This document shows, one piece after another, positions 4,494-37,500 of a DNA stretch of 64,000 nucleotides. Under the pieces are notes generated by a model. That model searched no databases, was not told the DNA's origin, and saw only the letters and a program-made list of their open reading frames with translations. The number at the start of each line of letters is the position of its first letter. Position 1 is the stretch's first letter. Source of the DNA: Torpedo marmorata (taxonomy: Eukaryota); contig OZ360228.1 of the NCBI GenBank assembly GCA_977017645.1, positions 87,420,001-87,484,000 on the forward strand. The letters are read 5' to 3'. A program made the translations under genes and the position numbers.

Positions 4494-5353
4494 GAGAAAC
4501 AGTTAACTTCCCTGGTCAACGAGCTGAGAAAAGTTGGAAATCAAACAGGTTTTATATTCCTTTTTTTTGTTTTTCAAAATGAATTGAGGTGTTTGAAATG
4601 ATCATCAATTGAGAGTGAAGCATCAATAATTTATTAATTACTATATCCCCTCAATCATAATCTCAGGATTATCATACCCCATCCCCAAAACTAGAAAAAT
4701 GATTACTGCATTCTAGCATACAGTATTACTGTATTCAGTTCCTATGAGTAAAACATATGGAACAAATTCTGAGTATATTCAAAACAGTTTATATTTATAA
4801 ATTGTAAAAAGGTTACAAAGCATGATACAATTTAGGAATAACAAATATTTCAAGCAATCCTATGCATTATTTGAACTTCCAAATTGTGCTGTGGTCAATA
4901 CCTAGCAGCAACCATTTTCAATGCTGTGCTCCTTAACTATTTCTACTTGCTTATCACTAGACACACTAAACACCAGTTGCATTATTAGAATGATTAATGA
5001 AGGATTATTTTCTAAATGACAATAAATTAACCAGCACTGATAACGAGTGAAGGGTGCCATTAACTATATCTGAGAGGTGAATCAGCATTTGACATATGTT
5101 TAAAAATAATTACCGTATATTTTGGCGTATAAGTCGACTCGCGGATAAGTCGACCCCCCTTTTTCAGCCTCATTTTAATGGTTTTATTGTATATCCGGCA
5201 TATAAGTCGACCCCCAATTTTCGGGCTGTCCGGGCCTCCCAGCAACAACCCAATATTTGTTACAACACCCCAATCGCCAAGTAACAAAGCTGTAAATTAA
5301 GCAAGTAAGTAAAAAAAACAGTAAAAAAAAAACCTTTGCTTCTGGCCGGGAAG

Positions 5354-5507
5354 ATGCCAAATGGAGCTGGGTCCAAGTCTTCAGCTTCGGCTGCAGCCAG
5401 AGTCGGCGATGGGCGACTCCATTCTCCACATCGGGTGCGGTGCTGTCCTCATTGAAGAAGTCGCCTCGCTGCCCAAGTGTGCTCGGTGCAGGAACCACGG
5501 CTACGTG
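5354..5507 (+). pseudogene. DMRT1: Captured, frameshifted 5' coding fragment of DMRT1 (N-terminus plus start of DM domain)
   Basis: Three successive frames: MPNGAGSKSSASAAARVGDGRLHS (ATG 5354) / TSGAVLSSLKKSPR (KK at 5455) / LPKCARCRNHGYV (5469-5507). Vertebrate DMRT1 starts MPN...SK and has KKSPRLPKCARCRNHGY. Two single-base deletions reconcile the frames; homology stops before SPLKGHKR. Confidence 0.85.
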
Positions 5508-5513
5508 TTGGCT

Positions 5514-5700
5514 CCCGGGCAGGAGCGGCGACCTCGTTCTCCCGGGCAGGTGCGGGGACCTCGTTCTCCCGGGCAGGTGCGGCGACATCGTTCTCCCGAG
5601 CAGGTGCGAGGACCTCGTTCTCCCAGGCAGGAGCGGCGACCTCGTTCTCCCGGGCAGGAGCGGCGACCTCAGGCTCCCGGGTAGGAGCGGGGACCTCGGA
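5514..5700 (+). repeat. GC-rich 27-bp minisatellite, ~7 copies
   Basis: Unit CCCGGGCAGG(A/T)GCGG(C/G)GACCTCGTTCT starting at 5514, 5541, 5568, 5595, 5622, 5649, 5676. Confidence 0.93.
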
Positions 5701-6313
5701 CTCTACAATTGTAGAATGTCTGGGTGGTTTATGCCGGCAGTGGGGAGGTGTCGGAGAGTGGCGGCGCCGGCGGTGGGGAGGTGCTTCCAGCGTCGACCTA
5801 TACGCTGAATCGGTTTTTCATGGGTCGACCTATACGCCAAATCGGGTTTTCAAGGGTCGACTTATACGCTGAATCGGCGTGGAGTAGTTTTTGAGCTGAT
5901 TTTAAGGTCTCAAAAGTATATCTGGCGTATAAGTCGACCCCCGTTTTTTGAGAGATTTTTGAGGGTTTCAAGACTCGACTTATACGCCGAAATATACGGT
6001 AAGTTAATTTATTTTCAAGAACATGCAAATCATATTAATAAATGTGAGTTGAATTTTGTTTACAATTAAATACTTAATACATTTTTCTTGAAATAGGTAT
6101 ACAAATGCATACGGTTTTTAAGAGAACATTTCCTTTTAATGTTCACTGCAAGATGCATTCCTAGAAATTGGTTATTAGGTAGTTTTGGCCTTTGATAGAT
6201 GGTGAGTGAATTGTGCAGTTTGGCCCTGGAGATCCTGAGACCTTGCGATCATTTGTCAGCACCAGGTTCACAGCTGAGGAGCTGCAGCTAGCAGTTCACA
6301 AGCTCCTTTCTCT

Positions 6314-7118
6314 CTCTTTTTTAAAAATATTTTATTTAAAATTTTTAAATCACACAGTACATAGTTTAAAATGCAAAATTATCAAATTACATGTGATACA
6401 TTTTCACCCCCCTCCCTCCCTCCCTCCCTCCCCTCCCTAACCCTCCTGAAAAGAAAGAAAGAAAGAAGAAAAAGATAAAGTAAGGAGAATGTCAATCTAA
6501 AAAAGAACAACTATAAACTAATTTTATTGTGGAACACAGGTTCGCCAGTCAGATCCGATATCCGGAGATCTTCAAATCCTTAAACCGACAGTTTTTATAC
6601 ATGGGCTCCATATTTTCAAAAAGAAATGATATTTATTACGTAAATTATAAGTAAATCTTTCTAATCCTAAATCTACATCAGATTTCCATGTAATAGCAAT
6701 GCATTTCTTAGAAACAGCTAAAGCAATTCGCAAAAATTCTGTTTGATACATATTTAATTTCATCTTAATACTAATTCTTTTAATATCTCCAAACAAAAAT
6801 ATCATAGGATCCATTGGGAGTGTAATTCTTAATACTTTGTCTAAAAACTTCTTAACTTTCAACCAAAAATCATATATCTTTGGACAAAGCCATGTAGAAT
6901 GTACAAAAGAACCTTCCTCTCTATTACATCTAAAACATAAACCAGATAATGTCAGATTGAATTTCTTTAATTTTTTAGGTGTTAAATATAATTGATGAAA
7001 AAAATTATATTGCACTAATCTATATCTAACGTTAATAATCTTCGTCATACTTTGTTTACATAATTCTTTCCAATGTTCTTCGTCTATTGTTACATTCAGA
7101 TCTGATTCCCCATTTAAT
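6314..7118 (-). mobile_element. 5'-truncated L1-clade LINE (ORF2 C-terminus plus 3' UTR)
   Basis: ORF 6572-7048 has the CCHC-like CFRC...HSTWLC region; 14-bp TSD AAGCTCCTTTCTCT (6300-6313 / 7119-7132); highly similar to the copy at 34526-37535. Confidence 0.9.
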
Positions 7119-8564
7119 AAGCTCCTTTCTCTTTACAATGAGCTGCAGCATAGATACTTTAAAATAAAAATTATGGTAAGATCTTTTTTTTGAAACAAAA
7201 CAAATCCAATTCATACACTGCTCACTACTTTATGTGCAATATATACCTGATTTAATTGTGAGTTATTTATAAAGGTTGTAAGTTACTGGACAAGATATTC
7301 TTGTGGATGCCAGGGTAGACTTAAAGGAAAGGGGAGCAGATTCCAGCAGCATTAGATGAGGTACTGCAATATTACACTATGCCATCAAAACCCACTGACA
7401 AGAGGTGAAAGAGGAATGACAGTATTCTGTTTATATTTGACTATGCTTTATTATAAATTCTTTTCAGAATACTCGTATTGCTCAAATGTTTTCTCATTGA
7501 GAGTTCTAAATATTCTTTTACACGTATAGTTAGTCACTCTCGTATAGCAGCTGCTGGTATTCTGCACGTCTTCAGACAACTAGCCTAGAAAGTTTGCCCA
7601 TGTCAGTGTACTCTGGAAAACCTTGATTGTTGCCAGAGAGCGATGGGTGCTTTAAAAATAAGTGTGACACCGCAGTATAACATGTGATTGTGAAATAATC
7701 TGACTGGTCCCTTTTGCTGACATGATATTCTGGCAATTATTGAGCAGGAGCTCCATTTTGGAACTTGCTCTTATCCTATGATGCTACTCCCTTACTTTTT
7801 CTGCACTTACAATGCTTAACATGACAACCTGTAACAGATTGACTCCTTCTAGTGGCTGAGAAAAATGAGCAGAGTTGCATGGTGAGATATCTGCTCCATG
7901 TTGCTCATTGTCTACCAACTTACTTTTTAGCAGATAATTGAAATCAACAGGAATACAAATAGAGAATTAGTCAACAGTGATTATTTGTATGGGTAAACAT
8001 GATACTACATTGATCTCATCCATTTGTTGGGAGGTGAGTAAAACCTGGTGCCTCTACCTCAGTGCTTATCCATTGTGTATCTTGAAATAGTTAACTAGAG
8101 AAAGGCTGAAAATTATCCCTATTAATGTCTACAAGGAATTTCCTATTGTTGACAGTGTGTGATTTTTTTTTTGCCTTGAAATGTTAGTCTTTCAATTATT
8201 TCACTACCAATATCATCAAAACATTTTTACCTTGTATAACTCTCAGCTGCATTGTCAAGAAAGGTGAATAAATAGCATCACTGCTGATTGGCATACTTAA
8301 GCAATCAAGTTCTGCAGAGATTTTAAAGAAGCTGTCACATATCAGGAAGTACAGAAGTGTACTCATTGGATCAGGGATTTATTCATTGCTGTGTTATAAT
8401 TGGTGTAAGTGATCTGTGATGCTCGATGCAAGGGAACATTATGCATCAAATGGGTTCTCTTAGCTGATTATTGGTGTGTAGCAGTGGCAGCAATGCAATG
8501 ATTTGGAACTGGAGAGGGGTACTTGGTTTGCTTTAAGTCTCAGCTGTGCAGAAGCTTTTGCTGA

Positions 8565-8806: not shown

Positions 8807-11276
8807 ATCAGAATAGGAATTTATTGTCATGAACAAGTCATGAAATTCAGTGTTTTGTGGCAGCATCATAATGCAATTAACATTCATATTAACCATCTTA
8901 CGACATTACTATAAAAATTATAAACAATAGTGCACGAAAAGTAAGGCAGTGTCTTTGGTTCATTGATTATTCAGGAATCTGATGGCAGCGGGGAAGAAGC
9001 TGTCCTTGTGCCATTGAGTGCTCGTCTTTAGGCTCCTGTACCTTTTTCCCGATGGAAGCAGAGTGAAGGGGGCATGGCCTGGGTGGTGGGGGTCTTTGAG
9101 GATAGAGGCTGCATTTTTAAGACACCGCCTCATGTAGATGTCCTTGATGGAGTGAAGTTTGGTGCCTGTGATGTCACAGGCCGAGTTAACAACCCTCTGG
9201 AGTTTACTCTTGTCCTGGGAGTTGGCGCCTCCATACCAGGCAGTGATGCAACCAGCCAGAATGCTCTCCACGGTACACCTGTAGAAGTTTACGAGAGTCT
9301 TCAGTGACATACCGAATCTCCGCAGACACCTCACAAAGTATAGCCGCTGACGAGCCTTCTTTGTGATTGCATCAACGTGGATGCTCCAGGACAGATCCTC
9401 GGAGATGTTGACACCCAGGAATTTGAAGTTCTTGACCCTCTCCACTACTGAGCCCTCGATGAGGACTGGGTCGTGTTCCCCTGACTTCCTCCTGAAGTCC
9501 ACAATCATCTCCTTGGTTTTGCTGACGTTGAGCTCAAGGTTGTTGTCATTACACCATTCAACGAGCTGATCTATCTCCCTCCTGTACACTTCCTCATTGC
9601 CGTTTGTGATTCTGCCGACAACTGTGGTGTCATTGGCAAACTTGTAGATGGCATTGGAATTGTGCCTGGCCACACAGTCATGGGTGTATAACGAGTAGAG
9701 CAGTGGACTAAGCACGCATCCTTGGGGTGCGCCTGTGTTGATAATCAGTGAGGAGGAGACGTTGTTTCCAATTCGTACTGACTGTGGTCTTCCGATGAGA
9801 AAGTCAAGGATCCAGTTGCAGAGTGGGGTACAGAGGCCTAGAGTTTGTAGCTTCTTGACCAGCACTAAGGGAATAATGGTATTGAAGGCCGAGCTGTAGT
9901 CGATGAAAAGCAGCCGTATGTATGAATTGCTGTTTTCGAGGTGATCCAGAGTTGAGTGGAGAGCCAGCGATATTGCATCTGCTGTGGAGCGATTGTGATG
10001 ATAGGTGAATTGCAGTGGGTCCAGATCTTTGCTTAGGTATGTGTTAATTCTGGCCATGACCAGCCTCTCAAAGCATTTCATCACAGTAGAAGTTAGTGCT
10101 ACTGGGCGGTAGTCGTTGAGGCAGCCCATACTACTCTTCTTGGGTACCGGGATGATTGATGCCCTTTTGAAGCAGGTGGGAACCTCTGACTGCCGCAATG
10201 AGAGATTGAAAATGTCCGTGAACACTCCGGCTAGTTGGTTGGTGCAGATTTTCAGTACCCTGCCAGGTACGCCGTCAGGGCCTGACGCCTTGCGAGCGTT
10301 CACCCTCTTGAATGATGTTCTGACGTCGCCCTCAGAGACAGATATCACAGGGTCCTCAGCCTTTTCAGGGATTCTAGTAGGCACTGTTTTGTTCTTCTTC
10401 TCAAAGCGGGCATAGAAGGTGTTCAGCTCATCGGGTAGTGAAGCATCACAGCCGTCTATAGTGTTCACCCTCGCTTTGTAGGCTGTAATGACCTGCACTC
10501 CCTGCCATAGCTGGCGTGTATCTGTCTCTGTCTCTAGCTTCCTCCGGAATAGCCACTTTGCTTCAGAGATGGCCTTCCGCAGGTCGTGCCTGGACATCTT
10601 GTAAAGGTCCCGGTCCCCGGCCTTAAACGCTCTTGTTCTCGTCCTCAGCAGGTTGCGAATTCTCTGATTCATCCAGAGCTTCTGGTTGGGGAACACCCGG
10701 TATTTGCGCGTGGGCACACACTCATCCACGCAGGTCTTGATGAAGTCGGTGACACCTGTTGCATATTCATTTATGTCTATGGCTGAGTGCTTGAATATGT
10801 TCCAGTCCACCGATTCAAAGCAGTCCTGCAGACGCTCCTCCGCCCCCCTCGACCATACTTTCGCCGTCCTCACCACTGGTGCTGTGGTCTTCAGTCTCTG
10901 CTTGTACGCCGGGAGTAGGGGTACAGCCAGGTGATCAGACTTGCTGAAGTGCGGCGTGGTATGGCTCGGTATGCGTTCTTCACGGTGGTGTAGCAGTGGT
11001 CGAGTGTGTTGGTTCCCCTGGTCTCGCATGTGATGTGTTATTAGTGACTTCTTCAGATTGACCTGATTGAAGTCTCCCACAATGATCGGGGAGGCATCAG
11101 GATGTGCTGTCTCATGGCTGTTTATCACAGTGCTCAGTCCCTCCAGTGCCAGCCTGATGTTAGCCTGCGGCAGAATGTACACTGCGACCGGGATGATGGC
11201 GGTGATCTCCCTCGGCAGATAGAATGGGCGACACTTGATCGCCAGATGTTCCAGGTCGGGGGAGCAGGACTGGGAC
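8807..11276 (-). mobile_element. Rex1/Babar-clade LINE, 5'-truncated; partial APE endonuclease plus reverse transcriptase (ORF 8960-11278)
   Basis: 772-aa ORF with GDFN and SDH endonuclease motifs, KASGPDG, YRPVALTS, GAPQGCVLSPLLYSLYT, and YKFAND in place of FADD; TTCTGA-like tail at ~8807-8820; ATGA repeated at 8803-8806 and 11277-11280. Confidence 0.9.
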
Positions 11277-12260
11277 ATGACGAGACAGAATACAGCAAGT
11301 GTGATTTGTGTACAAACCTGCGTGAGAAACTACACATGTAGAGAGTGGCCCATGTTCTATCCTTCAGGGTAGTGTTCGCTGGTGAAAATCTCTGGCAATA
11401 CAGACTATTTCAGGATGAAGGAATTGTGGGAGCTGCCTAGAAACAGCATTGGCTATTAAGAAACTTTCCTTTTGATTTACAATTACCGTAGCTGGAAAGT
11501 AATGGATTTATATCATAATTATAATCATAATTGTAAACATTTATTCCAATGAAAAGAGTTGAGTTAGTAATAGGATTTTTTCATGACCCAGGAATCCTGT
11601 CAATGGCAAAGGAATCTAGAAAATCTGGCATATGCTGATACTAAGAATGTTATTGCATTTCACTGCAATCAAAAAGGATGAATTCATGAATAAAGAAAAC
11701 CAGTGACCAGCATGATGCTGCAGTGAGCATTGAATTGAGAAATATGGCAGAGATTTACTGTGGCTACTGAGAATGAATCAGTGGTCGAGAAGCTAAGTGA
11801 CCAAGAACTTGACCTCCACAGAGAGAGAGAGCTGTGTAGGTACAAAAGCATGGATGAAAGGTGTCCCAGAGACTGTCACTTATTTTTGGAATAAAGTTAT
11901 ACTGCAATATTTCCATTTACATAATGAGGAATTATACCTCAAATACTTATTTCAAATTAATGCTTTGTGGAAAATGTTTATAATATTTTCACGAAAAATA
12001 TTTTTAGGAATTTCCAATATTCAGAGCAAGAGTCATGCTTATAATACTCTGACATTTGCATCATATGACACTGACTAAAGTTTTCTTCTACAATTTTCAA
12101 GTTGCACATAAGATGATATTTATATTTTATTGTGATTACACACTTAAGTTGTGGAGAAAAGATTTATTGCTCAAATATTTATGTATCTGAGGCTGTTGAA
12201 CAGCTGGCCTCGAAATGTTATATCTCATCTCTATAAAACATTTGTTTGAATATTGTCATC

Positions 12261-14459: not shown

Positions 14460-14761
14460 GTATGTATATAACAGAAAGCTGGAGCAATGAGAAGAAAACT
14501 GGTTAAAATGGGATAATCAGCAATCTGACCATGGATACAAAATCAAAGTCTATTTGCTAATGTTTTCCTTACTGTGTATTCTGTGAATAGTGATTTGTCC
14601 CAAGAACAACACATTTCGGGGGGACGTCACGTGATGGAGTAGAGTCAGGACGTAGAAACCCGACTCTCCTGGGACTGCTAAAAAAAGTTTAATTAAAAAG
14701 CGGTTTTTCAAAGTTTAAACTTCTTTAAAAGTAATATTAAAGTACTAAGGAAAAAACAAGA

Positions 14762-15882
14762 ATGCCTCCGAAGAAAGAAAAAACAATTAAAGACTTACCG
14801 AAAGCCCAACGAAGAGAGAAGACCTCGACTGCAAAAAGGCCTCGACAACAGGGAGCTGGAGTACAAACGGAGCCCCAGGAAGAGGCTCCGTTGATGGGAA
14901 CAGCTGCAGGCACCGATCCCTCCCGACGGCAAAAACATGGTGCCGGTGAGGAAATCGGGCCTGAATCGCGCATGCGCGAAACTCTGCAATTTACATCGGA
15001 AACAACGACCTCAGATCAGGGAGACACGAGCAGCTCCGATCTGGAAGACGAGGGAGACCAGCTGGAGGCCGAGGCAGTACAACAACAACCGCCGGAGAAA
15101 TTACAACAAGCATTTAAAGGTAAAGCATCAAGCACTGCAGCTATATTAGCAGCACTCAATGAATTAAAGGAAGACATGAAATATGTTAAAAAGGTGATTG
15201 ATGACATGAAAGGCTTGAAGTTAAAAGTGAACAAGATTGAAAATAAAGTTAAGAAAATAAAAGCAGAAGTGGAAACTACTGAAGAAGAGTGGAGGTAATG
15301 GAAAATAATTATACTGTTTTAGAAATGGAAAATAAGAAGCTTAAGCAGCAAATGGACATATTGGAAAATTTTAGTGGAAGAAATAATGTAAAGATCGTTG
15401 GTCTTAAAGAAGGAGAGGAGGGACAGGATATGATTGCATTTATGAAGGCTTGGATACCTGAGGTGTTGGGTGCAGATAAGTTTGAACATGAAATTGAAAT
15501 CGAAAGAGCCCACAGGGCCTTAAGAGCAAGACCATCACAAGATCAACATCCGCGTTCTATATTGGTCAAATTTTTACGATATCAAGATAGGGAGCGAGTT
15601 CTGCAGATGGCAATGGAGACGGCAAGACAGAGAGGAGGTCCTTTGATTTATAAAGCAGCCAAAGTTCTTTTCTACCCTGACATAAGTTCCGATTTGATGA
15701 AGAGGAGGAAAGAATTTAATCCAGTTAAAAAGACTCTGTGGGAGAAGGGATACAGATTTGTGCTGCGACACCCAGCGACCTTGAAGATCTTCATACCAGA
15801 CCAACAAAATAAATTCTTTACAGACTACACTTTAGCAGAGGAATTTGCTAATGAGCTGCCGCTGATTAGGGATGAGCGTTGA
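14762..15882 (+). pseudogene. L1 ORF1p (coiled coil plus RRM/CTD), one frameshift near 15290
   Basis: Track ORFs 14762-15298 and 15289-15882; motifs LENFSGRNNVKIVGL, IERAHR, PRSILVKFLRYQDRE, FYPD, PATL. Confidence 0.9.
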
Positions 15883-16309
15883 AAAATGAATGTTTTTCAT
15901 ATTGGTTAATGGAGTGATATATATCAGTTTGTAACTTGGTAAAAATGATGATAAAAGAATGTTTATGTTAAAAATGTTATACCAGGGGGGTTGGGGGGAG
16001 GAGGATGAGATCCTGATCTCTGCTACAATCATGTGTACCTTTGCGGCCAAGGTCGCGACCCGTAAAATAGAGGGGGGTAGCGCTGTATATATTAATAGCG
16101 CTAATGGGGTTGTAGTTAGACTATGTTTTCTTTTTCGCAGAGAGGGGGGAATGTATTTATCAATTGTATATTTTTCTTATATTAACTGTGTGTATTGTTG
16201 GAAGGAACACATATTGGCTCGATGGAGATTGAAGAAAGAAGTTGCGGAGGGTGAGACGGGGGTCTGGGATGGAAGGGGTAACATTAACAGGAATGAAACA
16301 TAACTAAAA

Positions 16310-19300
16310 ATGAGCAATATATTAAGATTTTTGAATTTTAATATTAATGGGATAAATGGACCAATTAAGAGGAAAAGAGTTTTAAGGATATATTAATAAA
16401 TTGGGTGTTGATGTGGCTTTTTTGCAAGAGACACATTTAACAGAGAAGGAACATTTGAAATTAAAAAGGGACTGGGTGGGGTATGTAATGGCTTCTTCAT
16501 TTAATAGTAAGGCAAGGGGTGTGGCAATTTTAATAAAAAAGAATCTTCCAATTAAGATACAAAATGTTGTGACAGACCCTGCAGGGAGATATGTAATGAT
16601 TAATTGTCAGATATATTCTGAATTTTGGACCTTTTTGAATATATATGCTCCTAATACGGACGATGATAAATTTATTCAAGAGACCTTTCTTAACTTAGCG
16701 GAAGCGCATGAAAATATTATAATAGGGGGAGATTTCAACTTTTGCTTAGATCCGGTTTTGGACAAATCTACAAGAGGAGGGAGGAGAACTAAAGCAGCAA
16801 AAGCTACTTTGGTATTAATGAATGATCTAAATTTGATTGATGCCTGGAGGAGAACTCACCCTAGAGACAAAGATTTTTCATTTTATTCTACTAGACATGA
16901 CTCTTATTCTAGAATTGATTTATTTTTAGTCTCAGCTCAAATACAAGATAGAATTTTGGAAATAGAATATAAAGCTAGAATCTTGTCTGATCACTCACCT
17001 TTATTGATGACAGTGGTTACACCTGATAAAGAGAAATCGATATACAGATGGAGACTAAATCCTTTGTTATTAAAAAGAACAGACTTTTGTGATTTTATCA
17101 GGAGGCAAATTCAAATATTTTGTGAAACAAATTTGAATTAAGTGACTGACAAATTTGTAATATGGGAAACTTTAAAAGTATTTTTAAGAGGTCAAATTAT
17201 AAGTTACTCTTCAAAAATTAAAAAAGATTACATGAAAGAAATAGATAAATTAGAAAAAGAGATAACGATTTTAGAAAAGGACTTGCAAAGGAGGAGTTCT
17301 ATAGATAAATGTAGACAATTAACTAATAAAAAGTTACAGTATAATATGTTACAGACTTATAGAATTGAAAAAACTATTACAAGAACTAAGCAAAGATATT
17401 ATGAGTTAGGTGAACGTGCACATAAAGTATTAGCAAGGCAATTAAAAACGGAGCAGGTATCAAGAACAATTAATGCAGTTAAAACTGAGGCTGATGTCAT
17501 TAGTTATAAACCTCAAACAATAAACGATTCTTTAAAAATTTTTTATTCTGATTTATATAAATCAGAATCTTTACAAGATGATAGTAAAATTGATAGTTAT
17601 TTATCACAGATAAATTTACCAAGATTAAATGCACAAGAGCGATTAGAACTAAGCACACAGTTTACACAACGGGAAGTAAAGGATGCAATTAGCTCATTAC
17701 AAAGTAATAAAGCACCGGGAGAGGATGGTTTTCCACCAGAGTTTTATAAAGAATTTAAGGAATTATTAATTCCCATTTTTATGCAAGCATCAGTGACCCA
17801 TACACTTCCAGAATCTTTCTCCATTGCAATAATTACAGTAATACCAAAGAAAGATAGAGATCCATTGAAACCTTCATCATATCGACCAATTTCATTATTG
17901 AACACTGATTATAAGATTGTGGCAAAAATTCTGGCAAATAGGATAACAAAATTTTTGCCAAAATTAGTAAATATGGATCAAACAGGCTTCATAAAAAAAG
18001 ACAAGCAGCAGATAATGTAGCAAGATTACTTAGTATCATGTATTTAGCCCAAAAAAGAAAAGTACCAAGTGTAGCAGTGGCATTAGATGCAGAGAAATCT
18101 TTTGACAGGTTGGAATGGGACTTTTTATTTAAAGTTTTGGAGAAATTTGGATTTGGGAAGACTTACATAGATTGGATTAAAGCATTATATAATGCTCCAA
18201 AAGCTAAAGTAGTGACAAATGGACAAATATCAACCCCTTTTTGTTTAACAAGATCTAGTCGGCAAGGGTGCCCATTGTCACCAGCTTTATTTGTATTAGC
18301 TATAGAACTGTTAGCAGAGGCGATTAGCAGTGATTTGGCAATCAAAGGATTTACAGTTGGTCAAGAGCAACATAAAATTAGTCTATTTGCGGATGATGTT
18401 TTAATATATTTGACAGAACCTGAGACTTCTTTGCAAAAGTTACATTTCAAACTGGAGGAATATGGAAAAGTCTCTGGATATAAGATAAATTGGGATAAAA
18501 GTGAAGTTATGCCTCTTACAGAGGGAGACTACACTGTATGTAAAAGAACTACTCAGTTTAAATGGCCACATAATGGAATAAAATATCTTGGAGTTCGGAC
18601 AGATAATAAATTAAAACATTTATATAAATGGAACTATGTACCACTACTTAATAAGATTAAGGAGGATTTAGAGAAATGGATTAATTTACCAATCACATTG
18701 ATAGGAAGAGTTAACTGTATTAAAATGAATATATTTCCAAGGATACAGTATTTGTATCAGACTATACCTATTTCATTACCACAGGTATTTTTTCAAGACT
18801 TAAATAAACAGGTGCGAAAATTTTTATGGAAAGGCAAAATGTCAAGAGTTTTGATGGAATGTTTAACATGGAAATATGAATTGGGAGGTTTGCAACTCCC
18901 TAATTTTAAGAATTATTACCGAGCGGCACAAATGCGTTTTATTGCCTCTTTTTTTGAAACTGAAGAAAGGCCTGCGTGGGTTGGAATAGAACTTGGAGAA
19001 ATAGGAGAAAAGGTACCACAAGAATTTATATATAAATGGAATTCAAAACTATTGACAGGTGTTAAAGAAACGCCATTATTAAAACATTTGATTAACGTTT
19101 GGAATAAGGTTAATGATGACATAGGGTTGAAAGGAAGTATATCACCCAAAGTGCCTTTGATACAGAATAATCTTATACCATTTACAAAAGAGAATCCTTT
19201 TTTAAATACTTGGTCATTAAAAGGAATAAAGAAGATAGAAGATTGCTATGAAGGAAATCAAATGATGTCATTTATACAATTACAGAATAAATATGGAATA

Positions 19301-20077
19301 CCTAATAATACACTTTTTTGTTATTTTCAATTAAAAGCTTATTTAAGAGAAAAACTAGGTCCGGGCTTGTTGTTACAAGATTGTAGTGAGGTAGAAACTC
19401 TCATTAGGAAAGGAAATATTAAGAAGTTTACTTCTATAGTGTATTCTTTGTTACAGAGGGGAGCTTTAAAATGAGGGCTTCATAAATCTAGACAAAGATG
19501 GGAACAAGATCTTAATGTTATAATTGATGAAACAAGATGGTCGAATCTATGTTTAGATAGTATGACCAACACTGCTAATGTAAGATATAGACTGGTACAA
19601 TACAACTTTTTACATCAATTATATTTCACACCACAAAAATTGAATAAGATAAACTCCGCGATATCAAATAGATGTTTTAGATGTGGTGAAGAAGAGGGAA
19701 CCTTTTTACATTCAACATGGTCATGTTCAAAAGTTAAAGGTTTTTGGACAGAGTTAGGAAACCGGTTAAAACAAATTACAGGTGTTACATTCCCTCAGAA
19801 TCCTGACTTATTTTTATTGGGAAACGTAGAAGGAACTAGACCAAAATTGAAATTATCTATATGGCAATTAAAATTTGTAAAAATTGCATTAGCAGTAGCA
19901 AGGAAATGTATAGCAGTAACTTGGAAGTCGGATACAAACTTAAGTATGGATAGATGGAACTCAGAGATACAGAGTTGTATTCCATTGGAAAGAATAACGT
20001 ACAACATGAGGAATAAATATGGGCTATTTTTGCAAATTTGGCGCCCATTTATCCAATTATTAGGAATGAATATTTGA
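16310..20077 (+). pseudogene. L1 ORF2p (APE endonuclease, RT, C-terminal zinc knuckle), disrupted
   Basis: Starts MSNILRFLNFNINGIN at 16310; LQETH, GGDFN, SRID, SDH; KAPGEDGF, YRPISLLN, RQGCPLSP, LFADD; CFRC..HSTWSC. Frameshifts near 16390 and 18000; in-frame stops ending at 17141 and 19474. Confidence 0.93.
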
Positions 20078-25679: not shown

Positions 25680-28600
25680 ACACAAGAATACAAGAACATT
25701 AGAAAATAGGAGCAGTAGGCCACACCTATTATTCAATATGATCAGGGCTGATCCACACTGGCCTCAAATCCTCTTCCGTGTCAGTTCCCCACAGCTCTCA
25801 ATTCCCCAAACTTTCAAAATAAATACCTACCTCCACTTTAAATACTTATCTAGCCTCCACAACTCCCTGGGGTAGAGAATTCCAGAGATTTGCTGCCCTC
25901 TGTGAAAAGAAATTTTTACACACCTCCTTTTTAAATGACGCCCTTTATTTTATAACTATGTTCCACTGGTGAAAATACCTCAACATCTACCCTATCCTGC
26001 CCCCTAAAGATCTTATGTGTTTTCATGAGGCCACCTCTCATTCTTCTAAATCCCAAAGAATATGGACCCAAACCTGTTAGGCTTGATGGGACCCTCTCTT
26101 ATCCCAACAATTAACTTGGTGAATCTCCTTTTGGATTTACTCCAACGTTAGGCAAGTTGGCTAAAACTGTGGGCAGTATTCTAGGTGTGGCCTCACCAAC
26201 ACCTTGTATCATTGTAATAAATCCTTTTGATTTTTAAACTCCAAATGGTTTGTAATAAATTACAGAATGCATGTTGGACCTGCTTGCTAACTTTTTGTGA
26301 TTCATGCATTTAAAAACACACAGATCCGTCTCTACTTCACTCATTTAAAAACACCCAGATCCCTCTCTACATCAATCATTTAAAAACACCCAGATCCCTC
26401 TCTACTTCACTCATTTAAAAACACCCAGATCCCTCTCTACTTCACTCATTTAAAAACACCCAGATCCCTCTCTACTTCAATCATTTAAAAACACCCAGAT
26501 CCCTCTCTACTTCAATCATTTAAAAACACCCAGATCCCTCTCTACTTCAATCATTTAAAAACACCCAGATCCCTCTCTACTTCAATCATTTTAAAACACC
26601 CAGATCCCTCTCTACTTCAATCATTTAAAAACACCCAGATCCCTCTCTACTTCACTCATTTAAAAGCACCCAGATCTCTCTCTACTTCAATCATTTAAAA
26701 ACACCCAGATCCCTCTCTACTTCAATCATTTAAAAACACCCAGATCCCTCTCTACTTCAATCATTTAAAAACACCCAGATCCCTCTCTACTTCAATCATT
26801 TAAAAACACCCAGATCCCTCTCTACTTCAATCATTTAAAAACACCCAGATCCCTCTCTACTTCAATCATTTAAAAACACCCAGATCCCTCTCTACTTCAC
26901 TCATTTAAAAACACCCAGATCCCTCTCTACTTCAATCATTTTAAAACACCCAGATCCCTCTCTACTTCACTCATTTAAAAACACCCAGATCCCTCTCTAC
27001 TTCAATCATTTAAAAGCACCCAGATCTCTCTCTACTTCACTCATTTAAAAACACCCAGATCCCTCTCTACTTCAATCATTTAAAAACACCCAGATCCCTC
27101 TCTACTTCAATCATTTAAAAACACCCAGATCCCTCTCTACTTCAATCATTTTAAAACACCCAGATCCCTCTCTACTTCACTCATTTAAAAACACCCAGAT
27201 CCCTCTCTACTTCAATCATTTTAAAACACCCAGATCCCTCTCTACTTCACTCATTTAAAAACACCCAGATCCCTCTCTACTTCAATCATTTAAAAACACC
27301 CAGATCCCTCTCTACTTCAATCATTTAAAAACACCCAGATCCCTCTCTACTTCAATCATTTAAAAACACCCAGATCCCTCTCTACTTCACTCATTTAAAA
27401 ACACCCAGATCCCTCTCTACTTCAATCATTTTAAAACACCCAGATCCCTCTCTACTTCACTCATTTAAAAACACCCAGATCCCTCTCTACTTCAATCATT
27501 TTAAAACACCCAGATCCCTCTCTACTTCACTCATTTAAAAACACCCAGATCCCTCTCTACTTCACTCATTTAAAAACACCCAGATCCCTCTCTACTTCAC
27601 TCATTTAAAAACACCCAGATCCCTCTCTACTTCAATCATTTTAAAACACCCAGATCCCTCTCTACTTCAATCATTTTAAAACACCCAGATCCCTCTCTAC
27701 TTCAATCATTTTAAAACACCCAGATCCCTCTCTACTTCAATCATTTAAAAACACCCAGATCCCTCTCTACTTCACTCATTTAAAAACACCCAGATCCCTC
27801 TCTACTTCAATCATTTAAAAACACCCAGATCCCTCTCTACTTCACTCATTTAAAAACACCCAGATCCCTCTCTACTTCACTCATTTAAAAACACCCACAT
27901 CCCTCTCTACTTCAATCATTTAAAAACACCCAGATCCCTCTCTACTTCAATCATTTAAAAACACCCAGATCCCTCTCCACTCATTTAAAAACACCCAGAT
28001 CCCTCTCTACTTCAATCATTTTAAAACACCCAGATCCCTCTCTACTTCACTCATTTAAAAACACCCAGATCCCTCTCTACTTCACTCATTTAAAAACACC
28101 CAGATCCCTCTCTACTTCAATCATTTAAAAACACCCAGATCCCTCTCTACTTCAATCATTTAAAAACACCCAGATCCCTCTCTACTTCAATCATTTAAAA
28201 ACACACAGATCTCTCTCTACTTCAATCATTTAAAAACACACAGATCCCTCTCTACTTCAATCATTTAAAAACACCCAGATCCCTCTCTACTTCAATCATT
28301 TAAAAACACCCAGATCCCTCTCTACTTCAATCATTTTAAAACACCCAGATCCCTCTCTACTTCAATCATTTAAAAACACCCAGATCCCTCTCTACTTCAA
28401 TCATTTAAAAACACCCAGATCCCTCTCTACTTCAATCATTTAAAAACACACAGATCTCTCTCTACTTCAATCATTTAAAAACACACAGATCCCTCTCTAC
28501 TTCAATCATTTAAAAACACCCAGATCCCTCTCTACTTCAATCATTTAAAAACACCCAGATCCCTCTCTACTTCAATCATTTAAAAACACACAGATCTCTC

Positions 28601-29045
28601 TCTACTTCAATCATTTAAAAACACACAGATCCCTCTCTACTTCAATCATTTAAAAACACCCAGATCCCTCTCTACTTCAATCATTTAAAAACACCCAGAT
28701 CCCTCTCTACTTCAATCATTTAAAAACACCCAGATCCCTCTCTACTTCAATCATTTAAAAACACCCAGATCCCTCTCTACTTCACTCATTTAAAAACACC
28801 CAGATCCCTCTCTACTTCACTCATTTTCTGTCACACTCCACTTTGATACTAATCTGCCTTTTGATTTCTCATGTGAAGTGCATGACCTCAGATTTTCCCA
28901 CACTTTAAACAACCTTTTTCCTTCTACCACCTTATGATATGTCTTTTCCATTAGTTATCAGAACTTTATTGGGATAAATTTCAATGGGCTGAACCTTACT
29001 GGCCAAAGCCTGCCCAGTATCCCATTTGCAATCTCCCTGTGACCT
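25680..29045 (-). mobile_element. Decayed CR1 LINE 3' portion, split by an internal satellite
   Basis: CR1-like tail (acaagaatacaagaacattagaaaataggagc) at the left; antisense ORF2 C-terminal remnants (aactgtgggcagtattctaggtgtggcctcacc) continue on both sides of the satellite. Confidence 0.65.
26306..28826. repeat. 35-bp tandem satellite, ~72 copies
   Basis: Unit TCATTTAAAAACACCCAGATCCCTCTCTACTTCA(A/C); few variant sites; one short deletion near 27978. Confidence 0.97.
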
Positions 29046-34525: not shown

Positions 34526-37500
34526 TTAAAAAATATTTTATTTAAAAATTTTAAATCACAAAATACATAAAATAAAATATGAAATGATCAAAATACTTGT
34601 GATACATTTTCATCCCCCCCTCCCTCCCTCCCCTCCCCAACCCTCCCAACCCCACTAATCTAATAAAATAATTAAAAAAAAGAAGAAAGAGAAAAGGACA
34701 AGGTAAGGAGAATGTCAATCTAATAAATACATCTATAAACTAATTCTATTATGGAGGTTAGGTAGCCAGTAGATCCAATGTCCAGAGATCTTCAAATCCT
34801 TAAGCCAACAGCTTTCATATATGGGCTCCATATTTTTAAAAAGAGATGATATTTATTCCATAAGTTATGTAATTTCTTCAAGTGGTATACATGAACGAAG
34901 TTCTGCATGCCATCTTTCTAACCCTAAATCTACGTCAGATTTCCAAGTAATAGCAATACATTTCTTTGAAACAGCTAAAGCAATTCGCAGAAATTCTATT
35001 TGATACATATTTAATTTCATCTTAATACTAAATTTTCTAATATCTCCAAACAAAAATATCATAGGATCCATTGGAAATGTAATCTTAAATACTTTATCTA
35101 AAATTTTTTTAACTTTCAACCAGAAATCATACATTTTTGGACAAAACCATGTAGAATGTACAAAAGAACCTTCCTCTTTATTACATCTAAAACATAAACC
35201 TGATAATGTCGGATTAAATTTCTTTAGTTTTTTAGGTATTAAATATAATTGATGAAAAAAATTGTATTGTACTAATCTATATCTAACATTAATAATCTTC
35301 GTCATACTTAATTTACATAATTCTTTCCAATGATTTTCATCTATTGTTACATTCAAATCTAATTCCCATTTTAATCTTGATTTATGAATTACTACTTTAG
35401 GAATTTTCCTCTGAAACAATTTATACATTTGAGAAATAAGTTTATTTACATCTCCTTTAGTAACTAATAATTCTAATTCATTCTGTCTTGGTAAAATCAA
35501 AACATAACCTAATTTCTCAATCAGAAAAGCTCTAATTTGATAATAAGCAAAAAGTGTATTATATAATATATTAAATTTATCTTTCATTCTTTGAAAAGTA
35601 ATAAATTTTCCAGCTTCAAAACAATCATTTATTTTCTTAATTCCTTTTTGAAACCAAATTTTAAATAATTGATTATTAATAGTAAATGGAATAAGTTGAT
35701 TTTGATATAAAGGCATCCTTGAAGAAATCAATCCTTTTCCTCCTATTTCCTTATCCGTCTTATTCCATATTTCTAACAAATGTTTAAGAATAGGCAAATT
35801 TTTCTTTCTTGTTGATATTAATTTAGAATCCCATTTATAAATAACTTCTTCTTTGGAATCTTCTCCTATATTATTTAGTTCTATTTTAATCCAAGCAGAA
35901 GATTTAGTTGAATCAAAAAGTTCATTAACAAATTTTAATTGAGCTGCTTTATAATAATTTTGGAAATTAGGAAGTTGTAAACCACCCATTTCATAATTCC
36001 AAGTTAATTTTTCCATACCTACTCTTGCTAACTTTTCTTTTCTTAAAAATTTTCTAATAACTGAATTTAAATCTTTGAAAAATTTTTGAGGAATTTCATA
36101 AGGAATTGATTGAAAAAGATATTGAATTCTTGGAAAAACATTCATTTTAATACAATTTACTCTTCCCATTAAAGTTATAGGTAAATCTTTCCAATTTTCT
36201 AAATCCTTTTTTATTTTCACAAATAATGGTAAATAATTTAATTTATATAAATTAGCCAATTTTGTGTCAATCCTTATTCCCAAATATTTAATTCCTTCCT
36301 TTGCCCATTTAAATTGTGTAATTTCTTTACATTTACTATAATCACCTTGTGATAATGCCATAATTTCACTTTTATCAGAATTAATTTTATATCCAGATAT
36401 TTCCCCATATTCTTTCAATAACGCAGACAATTGTACTAAAGATGTAGTAGATTTTGTCATATATATCAATACATCATCTGCAAATAAACTAATTTTATGT
36501 TCTTCCATTCCAACTTTAATACCAACTATTTTAGGATCTTTTCTAACTAATTCTGTCAAAGGTTCTATCGCCAAAATAAATAACGCTGGTGACAAAGGAC
36601 ATCCTTGTCTAGTAGATCGAGTCAAAGGAAATCTTGAAGAAATTTGTTCATTTGTAACTACTTTAGCAGATGGTTCTTTATATATAGTTTTAATCCAATT
36701 AATAAATGTAATTCCAAAACCAAATTTCTCCAATACCTTAAATAAAAAATTCCACTCTAATCTATCAAAAGCCTTTTCGGCCTCTAGCGTTAATACTAAA
36801 ATGGTAAATCTTCCTTCTTTTTTTGTAAATTAATTAAACTAATTAATCTAGCTATATTATCTTTTGAATATCTATTCTTAATGAAACCAGCTTGATCTAC
36901 ATGAATTAAATCTGGTAAATAATTAGCCATTCTATTTGCTAAAATTTTTGCCATTATCTTATAATCTACATTTAACAATGAAATAGGTCTATATGATTCA
37001 GTTTTCAATACATCTCTATCTTTTTTAGGTATAACTGTAATTATTGCATTTAAAAATGTGTCCGGTAATGAATGGGTTTCCGTAATTTGATTTAATACAT
37101 CCATATACGGAGGTATCAATAAATCTTTAAGCTCTTTGTAAAATTATGCTGGAAATCCATCATCACCTGGAGATTTACCACTCGTTAAGGAAGTAAGAAC
37201 TTCATTAACTTCCCTCATTGAGAAAGGTAAATCTAAAGCTTCTCCACTTTGAATATTTAGTTTAGGTAATGTAATTTTAGATAAAAATCTATTAATTTTA
37301 GAGTTATCTTGATCAATCTGAGATTTATATAAATTTAAATAATAATCCTTAAAAGAATCATTTATTTCTCGAAGTTTATAAGTTATTTCCTTAGAATTCT
37401 TTTTCCTAATAGCATTTATAGTTCTAGAAGCTTGATCTTTTTTTAATTGCCATGCCAAAACTTTATGTGCTCTTTCCCCTAACTCATAATATCTTTGTTT

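What the first reader, a model, noticed from the sequence alone, without database searches (positions are those of the whole stretch)
5113..5999. DNA transposon carrying a captured 5' fragment of the sex-determination gene DMRT1
Seen: a TA-flanked element with matching ~25-bp TIRs and no transposase. Its interior (5354-5507) reads, across two 1-nt frameshifts, MPNGAGSKSSASAAARVGDGRLHS/TSGAVLSSLKKSPR/LPKCARCRNHGYV and then breaks into a 27-bp minisatellite. Known: DMRT1 begins MPN...SK and enters its DM domain with KKSPRLPKCARCRNHGY; DMRT1 duplicates became master sex determiners in medaka (dmrt1bY) and Xenopus (dm-W). Inference: Pack-MULE-like gene capture by a Tc2/pogo-like element in a vertebrate. 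If the family is multi-copy, it has spread DMRT1 exon-1 sequence around the genome, a possible source of sense/antisense small RNAs against dmrt1, of new chimeric DM genes, and of false dmrt1 hits. The interior retains many CpGs, suggesting a young insertion. This copy cannot encode a complete DM domain.
Basis: partly seen in the sequence, partly recalled or inferred. Interest (0 to 1): 0.9.

Follow-up and report, generated by a model that had tools for sequence, protein, structure and literature searches.

The report
Jumping DNA multiplied a DMRT1 fragment
In a cartilaginous fish, a small jumping DNA element picked up the start of the testis gene DMRT1 and spread broken pieces of it to more than 10,000 places in the genome; the pieces are likely passengers, but the scale is far above the few copies reported for this kind of gene capture in vertebrates.

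Summary
Window 5113-5999 is one copy of a non-autonomous Passer (pogo-superfamily) DNA transposon whose interior comes from the genome's single dmrt1 locus: upstream leader, part of exon 1 and the start of intron 1, so genomic DNA was captured, not mRNA. Genome-wide motif counts give 10,546 copies of the leader and 3,271 of this copy's deletion junction, among 38,960 terminal-repeat ends. An autonomous partner with the same ends and open DD35D transposase frames exists, and so does an older cargo-free progenitor family. Subfamilies form a series in which nested deletions removed more and more coding sequence; the commonest keeps only the leader, start codon and minisatellite. No copy found has a complete DM domain, and copies decay like methylated repeats. 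The window copy is young, but the capture is older and appears shared with related species. Separately, a hAT-type element captured the full DM exon of DMRTA1 (at least 56 copies), while a Forkhead control shows no such spread. Best reading: a neutral, very high-copy Pack-TIR. Small-RNA or regulatory effects on dmrt1 are untested.

The parts
5111..5112 (+). Left TA target site
   Evidence: 29 of 29 left ends found among 30 loci are preceded by TA
5113..5140 (+). Left terminal inverted repeat
   Evidence: 26 of 28 match to the right end
5113..5217 (+). Left Passer end, shared with the autonomous transposase-bearing partner
   Evidence: 92-96% identity over 105 bp to transposase-type copies
5214..5222 (+). 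9-bp remnant of the original left capture junction (native L043 1168-1176); the next 45 bp of donor sequence were later deleted
   Evidence: sequence comparison; older copies cover the donor from 1165
5227..5353 (+). dmrt1 upstream leader, presumed 5' UTR (native L043 1222-1350)
   Evidence: 10,546 genome-wide matches to a 22-mer from it, control 0
5354..5430 (+). dmrt1 exon 1 from the start codon (native 1351-1420); keeps 6 bp that the native gene lacks and has a 1-base insertion near 5410
5430..5431 (+). Junction of the 44-bp deletion (native 1421-1464 lost)
   Evidence: 3,271 genome-wide matches, control 0
5431..5514 (+). Rest of the exon-1 fragment (native 1465-1549) with a 1-base deletion at 5468/5469; encodes the first three of eight zinc ligands of the DM domain
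   Evidence: Pfam DM positions 3-14 of 47, 17.7 bits, below cut-off
5512..5698 (+). 27-bp minisatellite, 6.9 copies, likely derived from the array in dmrt1 intron 1 (30-bp unit, 22.7 copies); joined to the exon through a 6-bp repeat
5699..5784 (+). Sequence resembling the 3' untranslated part of the older Passer, followed by a GC-rich block of uncertain origin
   Evidence: the block also occurs in a second TIR family
5785..5999 (+). Right Passer end with 32-bp subterminal repeats (5785-5877), shared with the autonomous partner
   Evidence: 89-93% identity over 208-215 bp
5972..5999 (-). Right terminal inverted repeat
6000..6001 (+). Right TA target site
   Evidence: 28 of 28 right ends found among 30 loci are followed by TA

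Best explanation
This is a non-autonomous Passer (pogo) DNA transposon that carries a genomic piece of dmrt1 and has spread to more than 10,000 sites, likely moved by the transposase of its autonomous partner and likely as a neutral passenger. Shown: donor, ends, target sites, copy numbers, autonomous partner, cargo-free progenitor and the series of subfamilies. Inferred: one founder arose when repair of a broken older Passer switched template to the dmrt1 CpG island, replacing the transposase gene with at least 550 bp running from about 185 bp upstream of the start codon into the intron-1 minisatellite. Its ends then changed step by step towards those of the younger transposase family. Deletions that run from the exon into the repeat at short shared sequences removed the recognition tail and splice donor, then 44 bp, then most of the zinc module, and finally everything after the start codon. 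Each new master copy amplified, and inserted copies decay under CpG methylation.
For: Donor: best match by far among 9 DM loci; single Dmrt1-domain exon 2 kb downstream; nearest named proteins are ray DMRT1. Genomic capture: older copies hold unique intron-1 sequence (native 1676-1700) and upstream sequence. Mobility: TA on 29 of 29 and 28 of 28 ends found in 30 loci, and on 19 of 20 left and 17 of 17 right ends in a second sample. Counts 38,960, 10,546, 3,271 and 389, each with control 0. [quoted passage not shown] Progenitor: 29 of 30 loci with old-type ends lack dmrt1 exon sequence, and 12 of 30 hit the transposase at 62-84%. Series: the tree separates native plus old types from the window type (100/100) and nests the start-codon-only type inside it. 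Decay: CpG transitions run 3.1 to 9.0 times non-CpG in all seven sets; 1 of 19 window-type copies read has the DM piece in frame.
Against: Neutrality is inferred from decay, not from expression or chromatin data. The DM piece in window-type copies showed 6 non-synonymous against 10 synonymous changes (omega about 0.25, p 0.01); this is one of six tests, on 16 changes that include shared ones, in a piece that is out of frame in nearly all copies. CpG decay is slightly lower in the cargo than in the ends (39 of 632 against 70 of 744, p 0.03), though subfamily variants inflate the ends. All 9 non-transposase elements among the first 20 sampled carry the cargo. A second TIR family shares the 27-bp unit, so the array's direction of transfer is not proven. 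Overlap at the left junction is short (2 exact bases, 6 of 7 imperfect). Transposition in trans was not assayed, and no empty site was recovered.
Confidence: 0.75

Rival explanations
1. The cargo is not neutral for the element. The dmrt1 leader or GC-rich repeat would keep copies more open or less methylated in germ cells, so cargo-bearing elements out-transposed cargo-free ones, while the coding part was dispensable.
For: The leader is kept in 30 of 30 copies (by construction of that sample) while coding sequence was lost in several independent ways. 9 of 9 non-transposase elements in a sample picked by ends carry it. Slightly lower CpG decay in the cargo. Bat Helitrons with captured promoters, 5' UTRs or first exons reach higher copy numbers than others (PMC4224331, passages). 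Both captures here are 5' exons of CpG-rich genes.
Against: CpG transitions in the cargo are still 3-4 times non-CpG. Deletions running into an adjacent tandem repeat would remove the exon first with no selection. In the older family cargo-free ends were about as common as cargo copies (448 against 389 matches, different patterns). One successful founder explains the sample equally well.
Confidence: 0.15
2. The copies regulate the host gene. Read-through from some of the 10,000 copies would feed piRNA or siRNA pathways, and antisense small RNAs would then target the dmrt1 leader and exon 1.
For: Window-type copies share a median of 28 exact 21-mers and 71 26-mers at up to 2 mismatches with the native region (20 copies). 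Strands are balanced (1,642 and 1,629). CpG decay shows the copies are methylated, as silenced repeats are. PMC8277862 raises sense/antisense pairing for Pack-TIRs (passage).
Against: The commonest type shares 0 exact 21-mers with the native region in 17 of 17 copies, and the window copy shares only 7. The native exon keeps a CpG-island profile and a short branch in the tree (0.02), so it does not look silenced.
Confidence: 0.1
3. Some copies are new DM-domain genes, like medaka dmrt1bY or Xenopus dm-W, acting as truncated or dominant-negative factors.
For: One old copy (L063) has a 199-codon frame from the dmrt1 start codon through Pfam DM positions 3-43 of 47. 9 of 27 older copies read have the DM piece in frame. 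In the separate hAT family 8 of 37 loci keep all eight zinc ligands without a stop.
Against: Only 4 non-native loci hold the second half of the zinc module, and all stop 61-63 bases into the 150-base query, before the recognition tail. L063 has lost the first cysteine, L064 stops just after the module, and L065 has no start codon and an internal stop. None of the 8 intact hAT copies has an in-frame methionine upstream. Omega for hAT DM copies is 0.70-0.81, not significant. A protein search with an in-frame copy returned only 3 native DMRT1 proteins among 121 candidates (weak evidence by the tool's own note).
Confidence: 0.04
4. The match is a retrocopy, a segmental duplication or an assembly artefact and not transposon capture.
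For: None specific. Repeat-rich assemblies can inflate counts.
Against: Intron and upstream sequence are present; every copy has different flanks with TA at the ends; native dmrt1 appears once; the element is also in contigs of four other coded organisms.
Confidence: 0.01

Closest known systems
Multicopy Pack-TIRs of animals (PMC8277862; passages read; supplements not read)
   Same: TIR DNA transposon ends around a host fragment with an identifiable parent, far from the parent, with separate target sites and GC-rich cargo.
   Different: That survey found 4 multicopy cases (1.4%), with examples of three and five copies. Here there are at least 10,546 copies, several subfamilies, and both the progenitor and the partner transposase are in the genome. 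The main text has no mention of sharks or DMRT.
Bat Helitrons carrying promoter, 5' UTR, first exon and part of intron 1, e.g. HelibatN3-NUBPL (PMC4224331; passages)
   Same: Same kind of cargo, amplified to about a thousand copies; 5' cargo linked to higher copy number.
   Different: Rolling-circle element, not cut-and-paste. Here one gene reaches about ten times that number.
Passer family of the pogo superfamily (PMC7386202; passages)
   Same: TA target site, short TIR, BrkDBD plus HTH_Tnp_Tc5, DD35D.
   Different: The vertebrate classes listed for Passer in the passages read do not include cartilaginous fish, and no captured host gene is described there.
Xenopus dm-W (PMC9250109; abstract) and medaka dmrt1bY with Izanagi (PMC2820524; passages)
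   Same: dmrt1-derived sequence joined to DNA-transposon sequence.
   Different: Those are single functional duplicates to which a transposon added an exon or a binding site. Here the transposon carries the gene fragment, and the domain is broken.
Platyfish texim genes carried by a Helitron (PMC4021074; abstract)
   Same: A testis-related gene captured and moved by a DNA transposon in a fish.
   Different: Whole expressed genes in few copies, Helitron carrier.

Membership tests
Passer (pogo superfamily) | TA target site | tested here: met
   29 of 29 and 28 of 28 ends found
Passer (pogo superfamily) | TIR of 40 bp or less | tested here: met
   26 of 28 match
Passer (pogo superfamily) | Transposase with BrkDBD plus HTH_Tnp_Tc5 and DDE_1 (tested on the partner with the same ends) | tested here: met
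   L101, all three over the Pfam cut-offs
Passer (pogo superfamily) | DD35D catalytic spacing | tested here: met
   D173, D280, D316 in the 441-aa frame
Passer (pogo superfamily) | Placement in the Passer clade of a transposase tree | not tested
   No reference transposases fetched
Multicopy Pack-TIR | Transposon sequence on both sides of a non-transposon host fragment | tested here: met
Multicopy Pack-TIR | Identifiable parental locus | tested here: met
   L043, G000:C2 near 246.43 Mb
Multicopy Pack-TIR | Repeated transposition to distal sites with separate flanks | tested here: met
   no blastn hit to the element in about 10 kb on either side of the donor exon
Multicopy Pack-TIR | Microhomology at the capture breakpoints | tested here: inconclusive
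   Left: 2 exact bases, 6 of 7 imperfect; right junction lies in a repeat; no significance test run
Multicopy Pack-TIR | Empty orthologous site in an outgroup | tested here: inconclusive
   Organism B's flank contig ends at 5066, before the insertion point
Processed retrocopy | No intron sequence | tested here: not met
   Intron-1 and upstream sequence present in older copies
dmrt1-derived sex determiner (dmrt1bY, dm-W type) | Complete DM domain in frame | tested here: not met
dmrt1-derived sex determiner (dmrt1bY, dm-W type) | Sex linkage and gonadal expression | not testable with these tools
   No sexed reads; no run on record as RNA
hAT superfamily (second, DMRTA1-carrying family) | 8-bp target-site duplication and short TIR | tested here: met
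   Matching 8-bp flanks read by eye in most copies with both ends, e.g. L040, L046, L048, L053, L054, L059; assignment of this signature to hAT is recalled
hAT superfamily (second, DMRTA1-carrying family) | hAT transposase partner | not tested
   Not searched

The most novel reading that the evidence does not exclude
DMRT-family 5' CpG islands are preferred and useful cargo for DNA transposons in the germ line of these fish. Two unrelated superfamilies each captured a DMRT gene, and the dmrt1 leader helped its carrier become the dominant non-autonomous Passer, shedding the coding part and a candidate DMRT1 binding site on the way. With thousands of near-identical antisense templates, the transposon-silencing system now reaches dmrt1 itself.
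Probability: 0.15. Interest if true: 0.88.

Novelty: new variant of a known kind. Interest (0 to 1): 0.63.

Why it matters
It shows gene capture by a cut-and-paste transposon in a vertebrate reaching five figures of copies, where a survey of 100 animal genomes reported examples of three to five. Progenitor, founder-like copies, intermediate deletions and the partner transposase all survive in one genome, so the birth and erosion of a Pack element can be followed step by step. The family also makes two open questions directly testable: whether captured 5' gene regions help an element spread, and whether transposon silencing spills over onto the donor gene. In practice, DM-domain or dmrt1 searches, PCR markers and read mapping in these fish will hit thousands of decoys.

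Tried and rejected
Expression: no RNA holder listed; run X8 is only guessed to be RNA, so its cover is not used as evidence. Empty-site test: inconclusive, the flank contig of organism B stops about 45 bp short. The 6-bp marker shared by the native gene and Narcine is weak because it lies in a slippage-prone microrepeat: of 26 older copies scored, 20 keep the long form, 2 lost 6 bp, 2 lost 9 bp and 2 gained 6 bp; 3 could not be scored. Methylation escape by the cargo: not supported beyond a small difference. Selection on hAT-borne DM domains: not significant in three tests. A carrier element next to the donor gene: no blastn hit in L107 or L108, only two 5-mismatch terminal-repeat look-alikes in L108. 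Source of the GC-rich block in the dmrt1 locus or the autonomous element: none found. Annotated proteins from the element: none. General spread of transcription-factor exons: not seen for Forkhead, 82 candidates and 60 matches; this is one control only. A scan of the rest of the window for further family members was not completed. Literature: five searches listed no report of a transposon-borne DMRT fragment; the library is open-access only, repeat databases were not searchable, and the supplementary list of 370 Pack-TIRs in PMC8277862 was not read. Earlier findings by sequence and by genome: nothing.

Full report
Observation. The element is real at 5113-5999: TA on both sides, inverted repeats matching at 26 of 28 positions, no transposase frame and a 27-bp array at 5512-5698. 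The window lies at G000:C40:87,420,001-87,484,000 in a 6.2-Gb assembly.

The donor. A DM-profile search scored 150 of 3,769 candidates and gave 87 matches. The only Dmrt1 C-terminal domain hit lies 2 kb behind locus L043 on C2. L043 is followed on the same strand by two more DM genes that I read as dmrt3 and dmrt2 (names from recalled peptides and gene order). Its exon is closest to DMRT1 of rays: 94% to Pristis over 84% of the query and 88% to Narcine over all of it. The host is therefore a cartilaginous fish, probably a ray. Window 5227-5514 aligns to L043 1222-1549 at 239 bits, against at most 37 bits for the other 8 DM loci tested, with 23 mismatches in 274 aligned bases. The cargo includes about 130 bp upstream of the start codon. 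The exon ends at a 6-bp repeat that also opens the minisatellite in native intron 1.

Copy number. Motif counts over the whole assembly, each with a reversed-pattern control of 0: 38,960 terminal-repeat ends, 10,546 copies of a leader 22-mer, 3,271 copies of the 44-bp deletion junction in the window's form and 389 copies of an upstream stretch kept only by older types, native included. These are lower bounds at 1-2 mismatches. The first 30 ends on C1 belong to 20 elements by my pairing: 9 carry dmrt1 leader plus minisatellite and 11 are transposase-type. Of the first 30 exact leader matches, 18 run from the start codon straight into the minisatellite, 8 keep the DM piece (two of them in one element) and 4 have other deletions. 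TA flanks 29 of 29 left and 28 of 28 right ends found in 30 top-scoring loci, and 19 of 20 and 17 of 17 in a second sample.

The carrier. Ten long elements with the same ends were fetched; 4 have unbroken transposase frames. L101 encodes 441 aa with BrkDBD, HTH_Tnp_Tc5 and DDE_1 and DD35D spacing, the features given for Passer in PMC7386202 (passages). A search for the oldest end type gave 448 matches. Of 30 loci, 29 lack dmrt1 exon sequence and 12 hit the present transposase at 62-84% identity. This older Passer is the likely progenitor: it shares the first 100 bp with the founder-like copies at about 90% and supplies their right end. That the partner's transposase moved the cargo copies is inferred from shared ends, not assayed.

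History. Only four non-native loci hold the second half of the zinc module. Three (L063-L065) cover the donor from 1165 to 1613, lack 62 bp with the recognition tail and splice donor, and resume in unique intron-1 sequence before the array. This shows capture of genomic DNA. The fourth adds the 44-bp deletion. Among 29 older copies, one branch then lost the whole DM piece and another lost one base and the second half of the module. The ends change gradually between types. A tree of 49 rows separates native plus old types from the window type with full support and nests the start-codon-only type in the window type; 23 of 46 inner branches are unresolved. Mean distance to the column majority is 4.1% for old cargo, 2.9% for the window type (this copy 1.1%), 2.0% for the shortest type and 1.8% for transposase copies; samples were picked by short motifs, which biases these down. 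Contigs of four coded organisms cover the element (4 of 15 listed runs laid). In organisms B and F the commonest alleles at 5386 and 5427 are the older ones, and loose ends show the 44-bp junction; in C and E both alleles occur. Organism B's flank differs by 31 letters and 11 gap positions in 466 bp. So the capture likely predates those splits, and later expansions were partly separate. The copies keep two residues that the native gene and Narcine both lack and six other sharks and rays keep. This hints at capture before the split from Narcine, but the site is slippage-prone. I could not calibrate any date.

Function. The window copy keeps three of eight zinc ligands (Pfam 3-14 of 47). Of 19 window-type copies read, 1 has the DM piece in frame (2 of 20 fetched copies could not be read); of 27 older copies read, 9 do (2 not read). 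None has the C-terminal tail, which PMC1931443 describes as mediating high-affinity DNA recognition (passages). The three longest copies carry a lost cysteine, an early stop or a lost start. CpG transitions exceed non-CpG transitions 3.1- to 9.0-fold in all seven sets, as expected for methylated repeats. Against plain neutrality: the DM piece gave omega 0.25 on 16 changes (p 0.01, one of six tests), and cargo CpGs decay a little less than end CpGs (p 0.03); both are weak. For the small-RNA idea, window-type copies share a median of 28 exact 21-mers with the native region, but the commonest type shares none. No expression data were obtained.

A second capture. Most other full DM hits belong to a different element with 8-bp target duplications and short inverted repeats, a hAT signature by recall. 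It carries about 0.7-1.0 kb of exon 1 and intron 1 of L034 at about 87-93% identity; L034 is DMRTA1. A 22-mer finds 57 sites including the native gene. Of 37 loci examined, 8 keep all eight ligands without a stop and none of those has an upstream in-frame methionine; 21 of the 37 were picked by DM score, which favours intact ones. Omega is 0.70-0.81, not significant. A Forkhead control gave 82 candidates and 60 matches, no comparable spread. One control cannot show a DMRT bias.

A caveat on the minisatellite. A further TA-flanked family (677 matches) carries the same 27-bp unit and the GC-rich block; 20 of 25 loci had at least one unit by a strict count. The native array has a 30-bp unit. Colinear unique intron sequence in the oldest copies favours a native origin, with later transfer between elements, but the direction is not proven.

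Comparison and verdict. This is a multicopy Pack-TIR in the sense of PMC8277862 (passages), where only 4 multicopy cases were found, with examples of three and five copies. The closest match in cargo and scale is bat Helitron capture of promoter-to-intron-1 fragments (PMC4224331, passages), a different mechanism. It differs from dm-W (PMC9250109, abstract) and dmrt1bY (PMC2820524, passages), where a transposon adds to a working duplicate. Five literature searches listed no report of this family; repeat databases and closed journals were not covered. Verdict: a new, very high-copy variant of a known kind, most likely a neutral passenger. Interest 0.63.

Noticed in passing
L034 (G000:C2:256,476,865-256,480,005, minus strand) and copies such as L036, L040, L046, L048: A hAT-type element of about 1.5-1.9 kb carries the full DM exon and part of intron 1 of DMRTA1; at least 56 copies, 8 of 37 examined with an intact DM domain but no start codon.
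   Followed up: partly
L217 and L248-L272: A TA-flanked, Tigger-like family of about 0.6-0.9 kb (677 matches) carries the same 27-bp unit and GC-rich block as the dmrt1 element, so the repeat may have moved between transposon families. The Tigger-like label is recalled.
   Followed up: partly
L043:1426-1438 (native dmrt1 exon 1): A stretch sharing a 9-base core with the medaka Dmrt1 site quoted in PMC2820524 lies inside the 44-bp deletion. Founder-like copies keep it and all amplified types lack it. It is coding sequence and the overlap could be chance.
   Followed up: partly
L097, L100, L101, L104: Passer copies with unbroken transposase frames, 1.8% from their column majority, so the family may still be active.
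   Followed up: partly
window 37726-64000, + strand: One open frame of at least 8,758 codons built of a roughly 226-codon repeat, running off the window; resembles the giant exon of AHNAK2 by recall.
   Followed up: no
L057 (G000:C2:256,448,128-256,448,268, minus strand): A divergent DM domain that stops just after the helix, 30 kb from DMRTA1; possibly a decayed tandem paralogue.
   Followed up: no
G000:C22 158.07-158.18 Mb (L055, L031, L038): A second three-gene DM cluster mirroring the C2 cluster.
   Followed up: no
window 26307-28826: 35-bp minisatellite, 72 copies, 96% matches.
   Followed up: no
window 14741-20074 (+), 34868-36829 (-), 6575-7132 (-), 8963-11329 (-): LINE-type reverse-transcriptase remains, including a near full-length element with both frames (class by recall).
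   Followed up: no
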